The notes under the pieces are model-generated. The model worked only from the letters and a program-made list of their open reading frames with translations, made no database searches and was not told where the DNA came from. Positions 57,874 through 64,000 of a stretch of 64,000 nt of DNA are shown here, piece by piece (position 1 is the stretch's first letter; every line of letters starts with the position of its first letter). The position numbers and the translations under genes are program-made. This DNA is from an uncultured Planctomycetaceae bacterium (GTDB lineage Bacteria > Planctomycetota > Planctomycetia > Isosphaerales > Isosphaeraceae), in NCBI GenBank assembly GCA_963833985.1, contig CAWIAD010000002.1, positions 3,232,001 through 3,296,000 of the forward strand, given 5' to 3'.

Positions 57874-58957
57874 ATGCCCGTGGACGCCCAGAGCTTCCTG
57901 CGGCTCATCCGTGGTCCGTCACGCGGACCGGCGGACCGCCTGGCGCGGTTCGGCCTGAGCCTGTGCGCCGGCCTTTACGGCGCCGGTGCAGCGGTCCGCA
58001 ACCGGGCCTATGACCGGAGCTGGAAGCCGTCGCACCGGGCGGGAGTGCCGGTGATCTCGGTGGGCAACATCACGCTCGGTGGAACCGGCAAGACGCCGAT
58101 GGTCGAGTGGATCGGCCGCTGGTATCGCCGGCACGGCGTGCGCGTCGTCCTCATCAGCCGTGGATACGGCCACGCCGGCGGCATCAACGACGAGGGCCTG
58201 GTGCTCGAGGAGAACCTGCCGGACGTCCCCCACCTTCAGGCGCCCGACCGCGTCCAGCTCGCCGCGATCGCGCGGGAGGAGCTCGAGGCCGAGCTGATCA
58301 TCCTGGACGACGGCTTTCAGCACCGCCGGCTGGCGCGCGACCTGGACATCGTGATGCTCGACGCCCTCGACCCGTTCGGGCTCGGCAAACTCTTTCCCCG
58401 CGGACTCTTGCGTGAGCCCGTCGGCTCGCTGCGCCGGGCCTCCGCGGTGGTCCTTGCGCGCGCGGACCTGCTCGAGCCCGCGGCACGAGAGCCGATCCGT
58501 GAGGCGGTCCACCGCGCGGCGCCGCGTGTCCCCTTCCTCACGGCGCGGCATTCGCCCCTGGACCTCGTCGACGGCGACGGCGGAACGTACCCCCTGGACG
58601 AGCTGGCCGGCAAGAGTCTCGCCGCCTTCTGCGGCATCGGCAACCCCGAAGGATTTCGCCGCACCCTGGAGCCGCTGTGCGGGCGGATCGTGGACCTGAA
58701 GGTTTTCCCCGACCACCATCCCTATCTCGCCCCGGACGTTCACGCCCTCGCCGGCTGGGCCAGCCAGTCCGGGGCGGATCTCGCCTTGACCACTCAGAAA
58801 GATTTGGTGAAGCTTCGCACCACGACCCTCGGTCGTGTTCCCCTGCGCCCTGCGCATCGGGCTGGAGATCATGGAAGGTCTGCAAGCCCTGGAACGGCTG
58901 CTTGAAGCGCTCTTGCCGGTTCAGCACGCCGTTCCACCGCAGCAGTCAAAGGATTGA
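57874..58957 (+). CDS. lpxK: Tetraacyldisaccharide 4'-kinase; frameshift near 58845
   Basis: 'VISVGNITLGGTGKTP', 'SRGYG', 'ILDDGFQH', 'PRGLLREP', 'FPDHH', 'TTQKD.VK'; a natural-looking C-terminus lies in the shifted frame ending at 58957. Confidence 0.9.
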
Positions 58958-58978: not shown

Positions 58979-60142
58979 ATGAAGATCGCGGTTTTCTGCC
59001 CCAACCTGATCGGCGATACCGTCATGGCAACGCCGCTCTTCCGCGCACTGCGGAACCGGTTTCCGGACGCCCAGCTCACCGCGGTGATCCGGCCGCACGT
59101 CGCCCCGGTGCTCGACGGCACACAGTGGTTCGACGACACCATCCTGTTCCACCACCGCTCAAAACGCCGGGACGAGCGCACCTGGGCAGTCATCGGGCGG
59201 CTGCGGCGGATGACTCCCGATGCCGCCGTCCTGCTGCCGAACTCCTTCCGAGCGGCCTGGCTGGCCTGGCTGGCCGGGATCCCCAGGCGCATCGGCTACG
59301 TGCGCTACGCCCGCGGAATGCTGCTCACCGACCGGCTGCAACCGCTGCGCGACGCATCCGGCCGGCTGCTCCCCACGCCCATCGTCGAGTATTACCTGGC
59401 GCTGGCGAAAGTGCTGGGATGCCGGGGCGGCTCGCCACGGCTCGAGCTCGCCACCACGCCTGACGACGAGCAAGCCGCCGACCGTGCCTGGCAAGCGCTG
59501 GGCTTACCGGCGGGTGAGCGCGTGGTTTGCCTGAACACCGGCGGTGCGTTCGGGCCGGCCAAGAACTGGCCTGCGGCCTCGTTCGCGGAGCTGGCACGCC
59601 GGCTCACGGTCGAGACCGGCGTCTCCGTGCTGGTGCTCTGTGGTCCCGCCGAACGGTCCGCGGCCGCCGAGATCACGCGGCTGGCGAATCACCCCCGGGT
59701 GGTCAGCCTGGCCGAGCAGCCGTCCAGCCTGGGACTCTCCAAGGCCTGCGTGCGCCGGGCGGCTCTCCTGGTCACCACGGATTCCGGCCCCCGGCATTTC
59801 GCCGCGGCCTTCGATACGCCCGTGATCACCCTGTTCGGCCCCACGCACATGGCCTGGACGCGCACCGCACACCCGCTGGCACTCCACCTGGCCCACCCGC
59901 TGCCGTGCGGTCCCTGTCAGCGGCCCGTCTGTCCCGAGGGCCACCACAACTGCATGAAACGGCTCACGGCCGACGCGGTGTTCCGCGCGGCCCTGCGGTT
60001 CCTGGAACCCGCGCCGCGGCACCCGGTCACCCGGCGCGTCGACCGCGTCTCGACCGAATCCCTACCGTCCGGAGCACTTGCTTCGCGACCACACGTTTCT
60101 CACGGGCAGGAGGCAACGACCAGGCCATGGCCAGATGGTTGA
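58979..60142 (+). CDS. waaF: Lipopolysaccharide heptosyltransferase II (GT9)
   Basis: 'PNLIGDTVMATP', 'LLPNSFRAA', 'GGAFGPAKNWP', 'TTDSGPRHFAAAF..P.ITLFGPT', 'CGPCQRPVCPEGHHNCM'. Confidence 0.88.
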   Translation: MKIAVFCPNLIGDTVMATPLFRALRNRFPDAQLTAVIRPHVAPVLDGTQWFDDTILFHHRSKRRDERTWAVIGRLRRMTPDAAVLLPNSFRAAWLAWLAGIPRRIGYVRYARGMLLTDRLQPLRDASGRLLPTPIVEYYLALAKVLGCRGGSPRLELATTPDDEQAADRAWQALGLPAGERVVCLNTGGAFGPAKNWPAASFAELARRLTVETGVSVLVLCGPAERSAAAEITRLANHPRVVSLAEQPSSLGLSKACVRRAALLVTTDSGPRHFAAAFDTPVITLFGPTHMAWTRTAHPLALHLAHPLPCGPCQRPVCPEGHHNCMKRLTADAVFRAALRFLEPAPRHPVTRRVDRVSTESLPSGALASRPHVSHGQEATTRPWPDG

Positions 60143-61103
60143 TCACCGGCGCGACGGGTTTCGTGGGCTGTCACGTGCTGGGCACACTCCAGCACGAGCT
60201 CGCGCAGGCGGGCCGAAGTGGCGATGCTGTGCTGGTGCTCGGCCGGCGCTGTCCTCGAGACTGGCCGGAAGCGTGTTTCGTGCATGCCGACCTGGAGGAC
60301 GCCGAGAGCCTGCGCACGGCAATTGACCGCGTTGCGCCGGATCATGTCATCCACACGGCGGGACAGACGCCTCCCGCGCCGGATGAGCACCTCTACCGGG
60401 CCAACTTCTGGTCCACGATCCGCTTGCTGAACGCGCTGCGCGATCTGAACCGGCCCGTCCGCGTGACGCTCACCGGATCGGCCGCGGAGCTGGGCCCGGT
60501 GCCGCTGGCCGATCTGCCGGTGGCCGAGGATTATCCCTGCGCGCCCTGGACGCCTATGGCCGCAGCAAGCAGCTCTCCACGATTGCCGGCCTGGCCGAGC
60601 GTTCGCCGCTGGAGGTGTCCGTCGCCCGGGTGTTCAACCCGATCGGCCCTGGCATGCCCGCAACCCAGGCCTTCGGCGAGTTCGCGGTGCAGTTGCGGGC
60701 TGGCTCGTTCGATCCCTTGCCGCTGATCGTCGGCGATCTGGAAACCCGGCGCGACTTCATCGACGTCCGCGACGTCGCCCGCGCCCTGATCGCGATCTCG
60801 CTGCGCGGCAAGCCCGGCCTGGTCTACCACGTGGGCACGGGCCAGTCACGGTCGGTCGGCGAGGGTCTGGAGCACCTCATCCAGATGAGCGGCCGCCTGG
60901 TGCGGACCTGCATCGACCCCAGCCGGCATCATCGCAAGAGCCCCGTGGACTCCCGCGCCGACATCAAACGCATCGCCACCCACACCGGCTGGACGCCCGC
61001 GATCCCGTTCGAACAGAGCCTGGCGGATCTGTGGGAGGAGCTGGTCCCGGCCGGCCACGGAGCCCCCGAAAGGACTGCTTCGCTCCTGCCCCTGACCGCG
61101 TAG
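60127..61103 (+). CDS. NAD-dependent epimerase/dehydratase (nucleotide-sugar SDR); frameshift near 60545
   Basis: 'LITGATGFVG', 'GSAAELG'; the shifted frame has 'YGRSK', 'RVFNPIGPG', 'RRDFIDVRDVARA'. Confidence 0.85.
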
Positions 61104-61139: not shown

Positions 61140-61756
61140 GTCACTTTTGGCCGTGCGCACCAACCGCAGGATATGCCGTCTCCAGGAGCGGCTGAGTGCG
61201 GCCCGCGCGACCATGACGGCGCCGGCCGCAGCCGCTAAAACCACCGCCACTTCAAGCCATGACCACCGAGCCGCGGGCACCAGTGCCCGACCGGTCCAGC
61301 TTCTCAAGCGGGGAAGGCGGTCATAGTCTGTGATCTGCGGAGCGTGGGGGGGTCCAGGACCTGGACCATGGTACCAGTCGTGCCGACGGGGCGGAGCACT
61401 GCGAAGTGCCCGCCGGCGTTGTCCATAAGGTACACGATGGCGGGCCTTCCGCGCAGCGACCCGCGGGTTTCAAGGCGGACCCCGCGCAGCCGCACGCCGA
61501 ACGATCGAGCGGCCTCGGACAGCTCGGCCATCGAGCGGCCTTGAGGATGTTGGGCGGGCAGCACAGCCTCGAGCCGAGCCAGCGATACGGGCCTGCCCTG
61601 GAGCTGAAGCAGTATGAACAGCGAGTTCACTCCGCAGTCGAGGCCCGAACGCCCATTCTCCTGACCCGCGGGTGCGAAGCCGACGGAGAAGACGGCTGCC
61701 GCCAATGCCAGGATCGTCGCGCGGCCAGCCGAGGATGACGTCCAGGGGTGCACCAT
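61140..61756 (-). CDS. Stand-alone exported C39-like cysteine peptidase with a probable C-terminal TM helix; frameshift near 61345, 3' end uncertain
   Basis: Signal-like N-terminus; 'DCGVNSL', 'GRSMAELSEAARSFG', 'GGHFAVL', 'VQVLDPP'; the shifted frame continues 'WTGRALV...WLEVAVVLAAAAGAVMVA'. Confidence 0.75.
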
Positions 61757-61805
61757 TGCCGCGACCTTCGCTAGTTTGTCCGGGGTGAGTCACGTGCGAT
61801 TCGGG

Positions 61806-62915
61806 TCAACGCCTGTGCTGCCGGACCCAAAGCAGCGTTGAAGATGCCAACGCAACTGCACCAAATCCCCACGCGAGCCACGTGGTCCACTCGAAAAACC
61901 CGGGCCTCGGGGCTGCGGAAAGGCCCGACTTCTGCTCGTCGGCCTCCGCGAGGTGCTGGCGAAGCATGGCCTCAGCCTCGGGCTTTGTTGGCTTGGTCCC
62001 CAGTTTCTGCTGTCCGAACTCATAGGCCAGCTTTCGTAGGTTATCGGAGACCAGTGTGCCCGGCTTGTACTTGATTGTGAACGATTCGCGGCGGGGATGC
62101 TTGTTGAACTCCATGGTACCTCCTACCACGTGGATCGAGGTGAGCACCGTCGGCGTCTTCGAAACGGGCGGCCCGTCCTTGGACGCGTCGGCGTAGCCGA
62201 CGTTCTGCCCCGCGATGGGCATCCAGACCCTCCTGGCGCCGAGATCGAAAGGCGCAAGCTCGACGTCCAGTCGGGCGGCCAGCACGCCCGCGGGGCCGTA
62301 TCCTTCCTGGCGCACCACCTGCCCGCACTTCCGCAAGTCAATCCAGTACCGGAAGATCGGGGAGCCCGGCAGGCCCTTGAGACCGATGGTCAGAATCTTG
62401 AGCGGTCGGTTATCGACGAGCTCCTCGCCCACGCTGGAATCAAACTGGTCGTCGGCCACCTCTCGCTTGATCTTGTCGATCAGGAAGACGAAGCCGAAGC
62501 TCGCCGGGTCCCATGAGTTCACCAGCTTAGGACTTTGGATGACTGAGTAGCCAATCGGCGCATCGTTCAGCCGGCGGTATTGCTCGGCCTGGTTGTCACG
62601 CGGGCGGACAACGAGTGTCTCGCGGACAATCGTCGAGTCGCCTGCCCGCTGATGGAAACAGTCGTTGCGGGTGTCGCCGTCGCGCCTCCAGATGAACATG
62701 CCGCTAAATGACTCGTAGAGCCCGTCCGGGCCGAGCGCCTGGAGCGCCGCTGCCGCTCCCTGGTACCGAATTGCCCCCTCGAACTCGCACCGAAAGTCCT
62801 CGATCGGCTGCTGGAGCGACTCCATCGTGTCGACCAGCAGCCGTGCCTCCGCGCGGGAGCCTCCGGCATCCACCCCGATGGACGATAGCAGGATGCAAAG
62901 GGCGAGGGACGACAT
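61806..62915 (-). CDS. Exported hypothetical protein with a C-terminal membrane anchor
   Basis: Hydrophobic N-terminus, beta-rich body ('RYWIDLRKCGQVVR', 'VWMPIAG'), C-terminal 'WLAWGFGAVALASSTLLWVRQHRR'. Confidence 0.75.
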   Translation of the reverse strand: MSSLALCILLSSIGVDAGGSRAEARLLVDTMESLQQPIEDFRCEFEGAIRYQGAAAALQALGPDGLYESFSGMFIWRRDGDTRNDCFHQRAGDSTIVRETLVVRPRDNQAEQYRRLNDAPIGYSVIQSPKLVNSWDPASFGFVFLIDKIKREVADDQFDSSVGEELVDNRPLKILTIGLKGLPGSPIFRYWIDLRKCGQVVRQEGYGPAGVLAARLDVELAPFDLGARRVWMPIAGQNVGYADASKDGPPVSKTPTVLTSIHVVGGTMEFNKHPRRESFTIKYKPGTLVSDNLRKLAYEFGQQKLGTKPTKPEAEAMLRQHLAEADEQKSGLSAAPRPGFFEWTTWLAWGFGAVALASSTLLWVRQHRR

Positions 62916-62987
62916 GGACCGCTCCAAAAAGTGCGAGGGCATATCACAAGCCGGAGAACCGTCGTTAAAACGGCATCGGCTCACGCC

Positions 62988-63395
62988 TCATTGAATGGTC
63001 GGCGGGCTCGGTGGGATCGCGCAGTTCGCGCCGCTCATTGTGACCTTGTTGCAGACGCCCGGACCGTTGCAGAGTCCGAGCCAGTTGGCTCCGCAGGAGC
63101 CCGCGCCGGTCCCCTTGTCGTAACCTCCAGTACCAGGCACTGTATCAGTGTACATGCTGCTCGCGCACGCCTTGCAAGGGTCGCCCTGCTTGGCGCATAC
63201 CGGATTTCCCTGAAGGGTGTTGCAAGAGGGATTGCCGAGAGATAATGCGGGGTTGCCGCCACGCGAGACGGTGAGCTCGTCCGCGCTGAGGTACGAGTCC
63301 GCAGACTCGGCCCACACTGCCAAAGCGGATGCGGCCAGAAGAGCCGAGGCAAAAGACACGAAGAGCCCCGAGCTGAAAGGCGCTGAATGCCTCAA
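62988..63395 (-). CDS. Secreted Cys-rich small protein with a double-glycine leader motif (putative peptide precursor)
   Basis: RBS 'aaaggaga' and TTG start; signal-like residues 1-29; 'LSADELTVSRGG' at residues 36-47; 88-aa core with 8 Cys. Confidence 0.75.
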   Translation of the reverse strand: MRHSAPFSSGLFVSFASALLAASALAVWAESADSYLSADELTVSRGGNPALSLGNPSCNTLQGNPVCAKQGDPCKACASSMYTDTVPGTGGYDKGTGAGSCGANWLGLCNGPGVCNKVTMSGANCAIPPSPPTIQ

Positions 63396-63487
63396 TGGAA
63401 TCTCCTTTCATGGTTCACGGTTACGGACAAACACAGAAACGATCTGTGTGGCGGAACCGGGATGCCCGCTCTGATGTCCGGCTCCAT

Positions 63488-64000
63488 TCACTCCACCAGC
63501 TCGTCTCCGTTCCTGGTGCCAAGGCCACGCCAGACCCTGCGGGCGATTGTTTCCCTTGTGAATCGTACCGAGCCGTCGGCCATCAGGCAGTTCACGCCAC
63601 CGGGATGGTGGCTTCTCGCCGTCGTGATACCGATCCATGCTCCGGCCACCAGAGCGTCGGGTATCTTGCCGTTTGGCTCCTGAGCATGGTTGTACGCCGT
63701 ACACTCGAGGTCGCCATAAAACCATGTGAAGCCGCCCATCCGGTAGGTGGGGAAGTTCAGCGATGAAGCTAGCTGGCAACAGGCCAGAGCGTAGTCCGCG
63801 TCCCTTTCCACACAGTACGCTTCGACCTCGATGTACCCATAATCGCGGTCCAGGGCCAGGCCGCCATCCTGCCCCGTGCCCCGCAAGCGTTCGCTGTAGG
63901 CGACCGTGTGAGAGAGGCCGTCCGGGAAAGACTCCGCCCCGAGCACTGCTGGAAAGGTATAGAAGCCATTCCCGCTGTCGTAGGATTGCTGGTTCGTGGC
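63488..64000 (-). CDS. DUF1559 (SBP_bac_10) / H-X9-DG-CTERM planctomycete protein, 5'-truncated by the window edge
   Basis: 'DGLSHTVAYSER', 'YNHAQEPN', 'ARSHHPGGVNCLMADGSVRF...VWRGLGTRNGDE'. Confidence 0.9.
   Translation of the reverse strand, partial: ATNQQSYDSGNGFYTFPAVLGAESFPDGLSHTVAYSERLRGTGQDGGLALDRDYGYIEVEAYCVERDADYALACCQLASSLNFPTYRMGGFTWFYGDLECTAYNHAQEPNGKIPDALVAGAWIGITTARSHHPGGVNCLMADGSVRFTRETIARRVWRGLGTRNGDELVE

What the first reader, a model, noticed from the sequence alone, without database searches (positions are those of the whole stretch)
61140..64000. Candidate extracytoplasmic double-glycine peptide system: DUF1559 + Cys-rich GG-leader precursor + anchored partner + stand-alone exported C39 peptidase
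Seen: four co-directional genes, namely a DUF1559/H-X9-DG protein, a 135-aa protein (signal-like N-terminus, LSADELTVSRGG, 8-Cys core), an exported membrane-anchored unknown, and a C39-like peptidase with its own signal-like N-terminus. Established: C39 domains usually sit on the cytoplasmic side of PCAT ABC exporters and cleave after LSxxELxxIxGG leaders; DUF1559 proteins usually carry a prepilin-type N-terminus and are greatly expanded in planctomycetes. Inference: precursor and protease both appear Sec-exported and no ABC transporter is in view, so maturation may occur in the periplasm. The product could be a disulfide-rich effector, signal or pilus-associated cargo linked to the DUF1559 protein. 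I know of no characterised system with this architecture.
Basis: partly seen in the sequence, partly recalled or inferred. Interest (0 to 1): 0.9.

Follow-up and report, generated by a model that had tools for sequence, protein, structure and literature searches.

The report
Transporter-free double-glycine peptidase cassette, planctomycetes
Many planctomycete bacteria carry a conserved five-gene cassette in which a small cysteine-rich protein with a bacteriocin-type cleavage leader sits beside a protease of the matching family that has no exporter attached and is predicted to face the periplasm, where it likely cuts that leader off; what the released product does is untested.

Summary
Real, and larger than reported. 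The four minus-strand genes belong to a five-gene cassette: Ig-fold (DUF1573-like) lipoprotein just past the window end, DUF1559 pilin-like protein, 8-Cys protein, LolA-fold anchored protein, C39 peptidase. A second copy with an intact C39 lies 9 kb away. The order is conserved across Isosphaeraceae: among partner-selected loci C39 accompanies the Cys gene 25 of 25 times, and 1 of 8 times without it. Distant planctomycete versions show GG in 16 of 17 precursors; in this clade only G(-2) is fixed and -1 is G/S/A in 29 of 39. These C39s keep Cys/His/Asp, lack the usual Gln, carry a signal-like N-terminus plus a C-terminal anchor, and have no ABC exporter. Corrections: the window's C39 is frameshifted (probably an assembly error), and exported C39s have a precedent (Pseudomonas FapD). 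Best reading: Sec export, disulfide folding, then periplasmic leader removal (inferred, about 0.6); co-folding gave weak support only. Display through the DUF1559 protein is speculative. Not found in nine literature searches; this scan noted the same system four times on other genomes.

The parts
63488..64000 (-). 3' half of a DUF1559 (SBP_bac_10) / H-X9-DG protein; whole gene is 351 aa and starts beyond the window (L001 6543) with a prepilin-type N-terminus. The fifth cassette gene, an Ig-fold DUF1573-like lipoprotein, lies just upstream outside the window (L001 6568-7533)
   Evidence: Pfam; NCBIfam TIGR04294 and TIGR02532 above cut-off; ORFs; Ig gene (PF07610 E 1e-4, under cut-off; the paralog reaches it)
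62988..63395 (-). Cys-rich precursor, 135 aa: signal-like stretch, double-glycine-type leader, 88-aa core with 8 Cys
   Evidence: family alignment with 8 invariant Cys and invariant G(-2) in 38 rows; no Pfam or NCBIfam hit
63309..63395 (-). hydrophobic N-terminal stretch (residues 1-29), predicted Sec signal or signal anchor
   Evidence: hydropathy (present in all 39 homologues, best 13-mer 1.7-2.9); no signal-peptide predictor run
63255..63290 (-). leader motif LSADELTVSRGG (residues 36-47; L-12, E-8, L-7, S-4, R-3, G-2, G-1); predicted cut after G47
   Evidence: sequence; position counts; helix predicted over residues 38-44
62991..63254 (-). predicted mature core, 88 aa, Cys spacing 8-6-2-23-7-5-9, net charge +1, Gln near the C-terminus
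61806..62915 (-). 369-aa partner: signal-like N-terminus, LolA-superfamily beta-sheet fold (about residues 18-284), helical stalk, C-terminal membrane helix
   Evidence: model pLDDT 85.8; Foldseek E 1e-10 to P. gingivalis LolA3; Z 16.8, rmsd 3.5 A over 212 residues to 4z48
61304..61756 (-). C39 peptidase, 5' part: signal-like N-terminus, Cys41/His117/Asp135, no Gln at Cys-6; frame breaks near codon 137
61346..61352 (.). run of seven G holding the one-base frameshift of the C39 gene
   Evidence: DNA alignment with two intact homologues
61194..61298 (-). 3' part of the C39 gene in another frame: WTG motif and C-terminal membrane helix
   Evidence: second match piece
60813..61042 (.). left copy of a perfect 230-bp direct repeat (3' part of the neighbouring epimerase gene) that flanks the cassette; right copy outside the window at L001 7749-7978

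Best explanation
This is a five-gene envelope cassette whose small Cys-rich protein is likely exported by Sec, likely folded with four disulfides in the periplasm, and then likely cut behind its double-glycine-type leader by the cassette's membrane-anchored C39 peptidase, without an ABC exporter. Shown: gene order, co-occurrence, leader anatomy, catalytic triad, hydrophobic termini, LolA-like predicted fold of the partner. Inferred: the leader's short helix (hydrophobic -12 and -7) docks in the C39 groove as in LahT, the cut falls after position -1 (G47 here) and frees an 88-aa disulfide-stapled, hypervariable core. More weakly inferred (about 0.3): the LolA-fold protein, the Ig lipoprotein and the DUF1559 pilin-like protein hold the core and present it at the cell surface through the type II secretion / type IV pilus machinery as a variable binding or adhesion module. 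In this assembly the window's own C39 is frameshifted, most likely by a sequencing error.
For: Co-occurrence: of 33 distinct partner-selected loci with enough flank, 25 of 25 with the Cys gene have C39, 1 of 8 without it do (counted from the table); 10 new loci picked by the precursor profile alone have DUF1559 and partner 10 of 10 and C39 9 of 9 where sequence reaches. Leader: hydrophobic -12 in 37 of 39, L/M/I -7 in 39 of 39, G-2 39 of 39, G/S/A -1 in 29 of 39 (the site picker favoured these residues, but the plain alignment also makes G-2 invariant). In 40 loci from other planctomycete hits a rule blind to GG found 17 signal-plus-Cys-rich ORFs, 16 with GG and 1 with GS just before the core, against 11% of background windows; they sit by Gln-less C39s in 13 of 15 loci and by Gln-bearing C39s in 3 of 25 (kin are not independent). 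Enzyme: Cys 150, His 149, Asp 144 of 150 representatives; hydrophobic N-stretch 139 of 145; C-terminal helix 133 of 143. Topology is backed by natural fusions in which the C-terminal helix is followed by a basic stretch and a prepilin start (L122) or a lipobox (L107, L113, L145, L146). Precedent: FapD is a Sec-exported C39 whose Cys is needed (PMC5557850). Gln loss is tolerated in CvaB Q26A (PMC3335142) and the Gln is 4.3 A from the oxyanion in LahT (PMC6363468). Co-folding of a cognate homologous pair (L063): weak support, score 0.56, best control 0.00; the mark was reached by 116 of 157 solved and 2 of 215 mismatched pairs, but at 0.60 or under by only 18 of the 157 and by both mismatches; runs share at least 48% of contacts, partner pLDDT at least 42; like complexes are solved, so the pass may come from memory. 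The genome has 3 secretin and 2 prepilin-peptidase matches.
Against: No cleavage, expression or localisation data. Position -1 is R, L, T, N or K in 10 of 39 close homologues and R or L in 3 of 10 more, outside the GG/GA/GS rule; -4 is Ser in 16 of 39 including the window copy, whereas LahT wants V/L/I/T. Gln at Cys-6 is present in only 3 of 150, a departure from characterised C39s. Four of 47 loci keep C39 without the Cys gene, as does a further cassette in this genome, so C39 may have another job. The DUF1559 link is tight in this family but looser in distant loci, and the genome holds about 82 DUF1559-like ORFs, most outside such cassettes. The window's C39 frameshift could be real: no read set covers it.
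Confidence: 0.6

Rival explanations
1. The C39 domain binds the leader but does not remove it as the main event: it acts as a docking or chaperone module (like C39-like domains of type I exporters), or cuts a different envelope protein, and the Cys-rich protein stays tethered by its N-terminal helix.
For: Gln lost in 147 of 150; non-canonical -1 in 10 of 39; C39 kept without the Cys gene in 4 of 47 loci; FapD's substrate is itself unresolved.
Against: Cys, His and Asp are kept in 150, 149 and 144 of 150, whereas inactive C39-like domains lack the Cys (PMC6363468); distant precursors keep GG in 16 of 17, which a pure docking helix would not need.
Confidence: 0.17
2. The leader is removed by the C39, but in this clade the cut has shifted (after R-G, leaving the variable residue on the product), or the frequent Asn/Asp-Pro just behind the motif is the labile bond.
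For: R(-3) 34 and G(-2) 39 of 39 are fixed while -1 varies; +1 is N/D/S in 35 and +2 is P in 17 of 39.
Against: Spacing from L-12 and L-7 matches the canonical register with G at -2; -1 is still G/S/A in 29 of 39; distant members are canonical. Pro at +2 is absent in 22 of 39.
Confidence: 0.13
3. Processing is as in the best explanation, but the core is a released antimicrobial or signal peptide, and the LolA-fold protein is its immunity protein or receptor rather than part of a display apparatus. (This competes with the display step only.)
For: Cores are hypervariable (17% median identity outside Cys, against 42% for the C39 domains); the cassette is patchy (27 of 121 family genomes searched), multi-copy, lower in GC than its flanks and bounded by a direct repeat; double-glycine leaders are typical of bacteriocins and pheromones (established).
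Against: Cores are neutral to acidic (median -2; -3 to -27 in 16 of 17 distant ones), unlike most membrane-active bacteriocins (own knowledge); DUF1559 plus partner persist without precursor and C39 in 4 loci, so the partner has a role without the peptide; no sensor kinase or exporter was noted as a conserved neighbour.
Confidence: 0.25
4. The precursor is handled in the cytoplasm by a conventional peptidase-containing ABC exporter encoded elsewhere.
For: The genome has one such exporter on the other contig.
Against: All 39 precursors carry a hydrophobic stretch 15-30 residues before the motif, which classical substrates lack; the dedicated C39 is co-lost with the precursor; no such exporter in any cassette.
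Confidence: 0.03

Closest known systems
Double-glycine leader / C39 domain of AMS/PCAT exporters (LahT, ComA, PCAT1, CvaB)
   Same: C39 fold by sequence (best solved relatives ComA, PCAT1, LahT, E 2e-6 to 5e-5), Cys/His/Asp triad, leader with hydrophobic -12 and -7 and G-2 (PMC6363468 passages).
   Different: No membrane exporter or ATPase; enzyme has a signal-like N-terminus and a C-terminal anchor; Gln at Cys-6 missing; substrate has its own signal-like stretch before the leader; -1 often outside G/A/S in this clade; core is 84-139 aa with 8 Cys.
FapD of the Pseudomonas Fap amyloid system (PMC5557850)
   Same: Stand-alone, Sec-exported C39 working in the periplasm on Sec-exported proteins of its own operon.
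   Different: No amyloid repeats or FapF-type pore gene here; Fap proteins lack canonical leaders and FapD's target is unresolved; here the C39 is C-terminally anchored and sits with a DUF1559, a LolA-fold and an Ig-lipoprotein gene. Other planctomycete stand-alone C39s that keep the Gln mostly lack the Cys-rich neighbour.
LolA superfamily (P. gingivalis LolA3, DUF1329 protein 4z48, Vibrio 3bk5)
   Same: Predicted open beta-sheet with covering helices, Z 15.6-16.8 over 207-212 residues; a lipoprotein gene is in the same cassette.
   Different: 9-16% identity; C-terminal stalk and membrane helix; no ligand or partner known; LolA3 itself seems to have a separate, unknown function (PMC13103446 passages).
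Planctomycete N_methyl + SBP_bac_10 (DUF1559) proteins
   Same: Prepilin start and H-X9-DG end; such genes are often flanked by genes with type I or II signal peptides (PMC8567305 passages).
   Different: The passages read describe no linked peptidase or Cys-rich precursor; function of the family is unknown.

Membership tests
Peptidase C39 (PF03412) | Profile match above the curated cut-off | tested here: met
   36.8 bits against 22
Peptidase C39 (PF03412) | Cys/His/Asp triad | tested here: met
   Cys41/His117/Asp135 in the window; 150/149/144 of 150 representatives
Peptidase C39 (PF03412) | Gln six residues before the Cys | tested here: not met
   Gly in the window; Gln in 3 of 150; not essential in CvaB
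Peptidase C39 (PF03412) | Proteolytic activity on a double-glycine leader | not testable with these tools
   needs an assay; co-folding weak
AMS/PCAT exporter system | C39 fused to ABC membrane and ATPase domains, cytoplasmic | tested here: not met
   intact C39 ORFs are about 190-240 aa with hydrophobic ends; no such exporter in the cassettes
Double-glycine leader peptides | Hydrophobic residues at -12 and -7 | tested here: met
   L36 and L41 in the window; 37 and 39 of 39; in distant members -12 mostly kept, -7 in about half
Double-glycine leader peptides | V/L/I (T tolerated) at -4 | tested here: inconclusive
   Ser in the window and in 16 of 39; V/L/I/T in 19 of 39; V/L/I/T in most distant members
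Double-glycine leader peptides | Ends in GG, GA or GS | tested here: met
   GG in the window; 29 of 39 close homologues, 17 of 17 distant ones; 10 of 39 break the rule
Double-glycine leader peptides | Leader is the N-terminus and replaces a Sec signal | tested here: not met
   a hydrophobic stretch precedes it in all 39
Fap amyloid system | Periplasmic C39 with Sec signal | tested here: inconclusive
   hydrophobic N-stretch in 139 of 145; location not tested
Fap amyloid system | Asn/Gln-rich amyloid-repeat subunits and FapF pore gene in the operon | tested here: not met
   the five conserved genes are all accounted for; none is of these kinds
LolA superfamily | LolA-like fold | tested here: met
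   predicted model
LolA superfamily | Carries lipoprotein acyl chains | not testable with these tools
   no ligand data
DUF1559 / H-X9-DG prepilin-type proteins | N_methyl start, SBP_bac_10 domain, H-X9-DG motif | tested here: met
   all above cut-off

The most novel reading that the evidence does not exclude
A phylum-wide, self-contained pathway in which Sec-exported, disulfide-stapled hypervariable mini-proteins are matured by a distinct Gln-less, membrane-anchored C39 subfamily with relaxed P1 specificity, passed through a LolA-fold chaperone and an Ig lipoprotein, and mounted on a dedicated DUF1559 pilin as exchangeable surface binders. It would be a new peptide maturation and display route and would assign cargo to members of the hugely expanded, uncharacterised DUF1559 family.
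Probability: 0.25. Interest if true: 0.9.

Novelty: new variant of a known kind. Interest (0 to 1): 0.68.

Why it matters
The double-glycine leader and C39 protease are textbook partners of cytoplasmic ABC export. A periplasm-facing, exporter-free version with a clear candidate substrate would be such a pair with a defined, testable cut site (FapD's was open in the paper read), and gives a direct assay. A naturally free-standing C39 that accepts Arg, Leu or Thr at P1 would be a useful leader-removal enzyme; excised PCAT domains are often weak (PMC6363468) and more stand-alone enzymes are wanted (PMC10885120). The cassette also supplies a large family of 8-Cys mini-protein scaffolds (353 C39 clusters at 50% identity with E up to 1e-30, hint at its size) and a handle on DUF1559 function.

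Tried and rejected
Fold of the core: model pLDDT 74.9; no Foldseek match at E up to 0.001, best wide-search Z 2.3; this neither shows nor excludes a new fold. ESM Atlas: no usable hit. Direct homologue search with the precursor found only one relative; the family came from synteny. Idea that the precursor's conserved C-terminal Gln (35 of 39) supplies the missing catalytic-site Gln in trans: set aside, because distant precursors mostly lack it although their C39s are also Gln-less; not excluded for this clade. Reads: three DNA runs with 7-8% of words, none covers the frameshift; no RNA holder listed. No match in the plasmid collection. The viral-contig scan could not be run with the alignment, so carriage by phages is open. 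An adjacent PCAT was looked for and not found: ABC matches near cassettes were an ATPase-only gene (L066/L087) and an opposite-strand exporter (L078). Papers PMC5352709, PMC12078418 and PMC3482391 (passages) do not describe this cassette in the passages read. Pairwise identities of precursor and C39 correlate (rho 0.47) but shared ancestry explains that; not used as evidence.
Full report
Observation. Pfam confirms DUF1559 and Peptidase_C39 above cut-off and finds nothing for the other two. Named homologues of the partner are from Isosphaeraceae, so the host is very likely a planctomycete of that family.

Beyond 64000 the DUF1559 gene is complete (351 aa, prepilin start, H-X9-DG) and is preceded by an Ig-fold DUF1573-like gene (L001 6568-7533). 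About 9.2 kb further a second five-gene cassette in the same order follows, about 72% alike in DNA where it aligns, with an intact C39. The genome has two more related cassettes: one with a different gene order and a canonical GG precursor, one with DUF1559, partner and C39 but no Cys gene. It also has one conventional peptidase-containing ABC exporter on the other contig.

The window's C39 is broken in this assembly. It matches the intact paralog in two frames; one base is missing in a G7 run, and the WTG motif with a C-terminal hydrophobic helix lies in another frame. The neighbouring epimerase is likewise split and both Ig genes have their lipoprotein-type signal out of frame, so indel errors are the likelier cause (inference). 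No reads cover the site.

Conservation of the cassette. I gathered 29 metagenome loci and 26 genome loci with the partner alignment and 20 stretches around C39 hits. After removing duplicates, 47 of 66 partner genes had enough flank: 36 have DUF1559, Cys gene and C39; none has the Cys gene without C39; 3 have DUF1559 and C39 only; 1 C39 only; 4 DUF1559 only; 3 none. Restricting to the 33 loci chosen by the partner alone, C39 is present in 25 of 25 with the Cys gene and 1 of 8 without (my count from that table). A precursor profile hit 27 of 121 family genomes searched, many incomplete; I fetched 20 of the hit regions, dropped 10 as duplicates of loci already held, and in the 10 new ones DUF1559 and partner were present 10 of 10, C39 9 of 9 where sequence reaches, Ig 8 of 10. 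Kin are not independent, so these are counts, not a statistical test.

The precursor. In 39 distinct members a hydrophobic stretch ends 15-30 residues before a motif with L/I/V at -12 (37), L/M/I at -7 (39), R at -3 (34), G at -2 (39) and G/S/A at -1 (29; G only 12); 29 have exactly 8 Cys in the core. My site picker rewarded these residues, but an ordinary alignment of 38 members also leaves G(-2) and eight Cys invariant. Outside the Cys, median identity is 17%, against 42% for the cognate C39 domains; cores are neutral to acidic. The model predicts a short helix over residues 38-44, the stretch that forms a two-turn helix in the LahT-leader complex (PMC6363468, passages).

Wider phylum. A C39 profile hit 82 of 401 phylum genomes, PCATs included and with at most 10 candidates scored per genome. 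I picked 40 regions by hand, favouring short ORFs (37, 3). A rule that ignores GG (hydrophobic stretch followed by 8 or more Cys) found such an ORF by 13 of 15 C39s without Gln at Cys-5 to -7 and by 3 of 25 with it. Of the 17 ORFs, 16 have GG and 1 GS within 16 residues before the core, against 11% of background windows (for L111 the script's first pick was an upstream GS, the GG is in the printed segment). Their neighbours include proteins that match the partner profile (probability 96%; 3 of the 11 rows were direct profile hits). Fusions show the topology: C39, membrane helix, basic stretch, then a prepilin start and DUF1559 (L122), or a lipobox and Ig domains (L107, L113, L145, L146). DUF1559 is not always nearby in these distant loci.

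The peptidase. Among the best 150 of 353 representatives at E up to 1e-30: Cys 150, His 149, Asp 144; hydrophobic N-stretch 139 of 145; C-terminal helix 133 of 143; Gln at Cys-6 only 3. Closest solved relatives are ComA, PCAT1 and LahT domains. The missing Gln need not kill activity: CvaB Q26A had a minimal effect (PMC3335142, passages) and in LahT the His may take that role. Co-folding a cognate homologous pair (L063, alignments of 28 rows) gave weak support: 0.56 against a best control of 0.00, contact agreement at least 48%, partner pLDDT at least 42; the mark was met by 116 of 157 solved and 2 of 215 mismatched pairs, at 0.60 or under by only 18 of the 157 and by both mismatches, and similar complexes are solved. 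It adds little.

The partner and the Ig protein. The partner model (pLDDT 85.8) matches the LolA superfamily (Foldseek E 1e-10 to LolA3; Z 16.8, 3.5 A, 212 residues to 4z48) and ends in a membrane helix. Twelve of 23 Ig ORFs show a lipobox by a strict rule; several of the rest are cut or frameshifted. A shared fold shows no function.

Mechanism. Most likely (0.6): Sec export of the precursor, disulfide formation, docking of the leader helix on the anchored C39, cut after -1, release of an 88-aa core beginning at Asn48. All of these steps are inferred. For the fate of the core I favour hand-over to the LolA-fold, Ig and DUF1559 proteins and surface display (about 0.3) slightly over release as an antimicrobial or signal (about 0.25): the cores are acidic, DUF1559 and partner persist as a pair without the peptide, a C39-DUF1559 fusion exists, and the genome has secretins and prepilin peptidases. 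Hypervariability, patchiness, lower GC (about 0.62 against about 0.69) and a perfect 230-bp flanking repeat fit either a conflict or a niche-binding role.

Comparison and novelty. It works like a double-glycine/C39 pair but is not a PCAT system (no exporter; substrate has its own export signal) and is not a Fap system. Nine full-text searches found no description of this cassette; the library lacks most subscription papers, I read passages only, and no supplements, where such loci could be listed. PMC8567305 (passages) notes only that DUF1559 genes are often flanked by signal-peptide genes. This scan's own notes list the same system four times on other genomes (seen after my reading was formed); they are not independent evidence. 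Verdict: a real, apparently undescribed variant of a known chemistry, directly testable, function open. Interest 0.68.

Noticed in passing
window 60813-61042 and L001 7749-7978: Perfect 230-bp direct repeat of the 3' part of the epimerase gene flanks the cassette (spacing 4936), each copy followed by its own version of the gene's end; looks like an insertion scar, or an assembly artefact. The second cassette has an 82% repeat of about 119 bp at its ends.
   Followed up: partly
window 60127-61103: NAD-dependent epimerase split into two ORFs by a frameshift near 60560; lpxK at 57874-58905 also seems to leave frame near its end.
   Followed up: partly
L001 12440-16770: Second complete cassette; its precursor has R-G-N instead of R-G-G and its C39 is intact.
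   Followed up: yes
G000:C2:4688546-4693267: Third cassette with another gene order and a precursor with a canonical GG and a larger Cys-rich core not hit by the profile of the window's family.
   Followed up: partly
G000:C2:212914-215778: DUF1559-partner-C39 cassette with no Cys-rich gene; no orphan precursor found in the genome with the profile.
   Followed up: partly
L122 8095-9714: Natural fusion of C39, membrane helix and a full prepilin-type DUF1559 protein; prepilin peptidase would split it.
   Followed up: partly
L111 12968-13825: Precursor of this type with about 50 Cys in a roughly 240-aa acidic core, upstream of a TPR gene and a Gln-less C39.
   Followed up: no
L126, L127, L129, L134, L135, L141, L142: Other stand-alone planctomycete C39s that keep the Gln, look like lipoproteins and have no Cys-rich neighbour; L134 and L141 sit next to small Ala/Glu-rich exported ORFs. 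Probably a separate system.
   Followed up: no
G000:C1:2972188-2977605: An 1805-aa ORF joining two ABC exporter subunits, probably of the NHLP type, the first with a C39 domain.
   Followed up: no
precursor family: A Gln 7-13 residues after the last Cys is kept in 35 of 39 precursors of this clade, often as P-x-V/I-Q; unexplained.
   Followed up: partly
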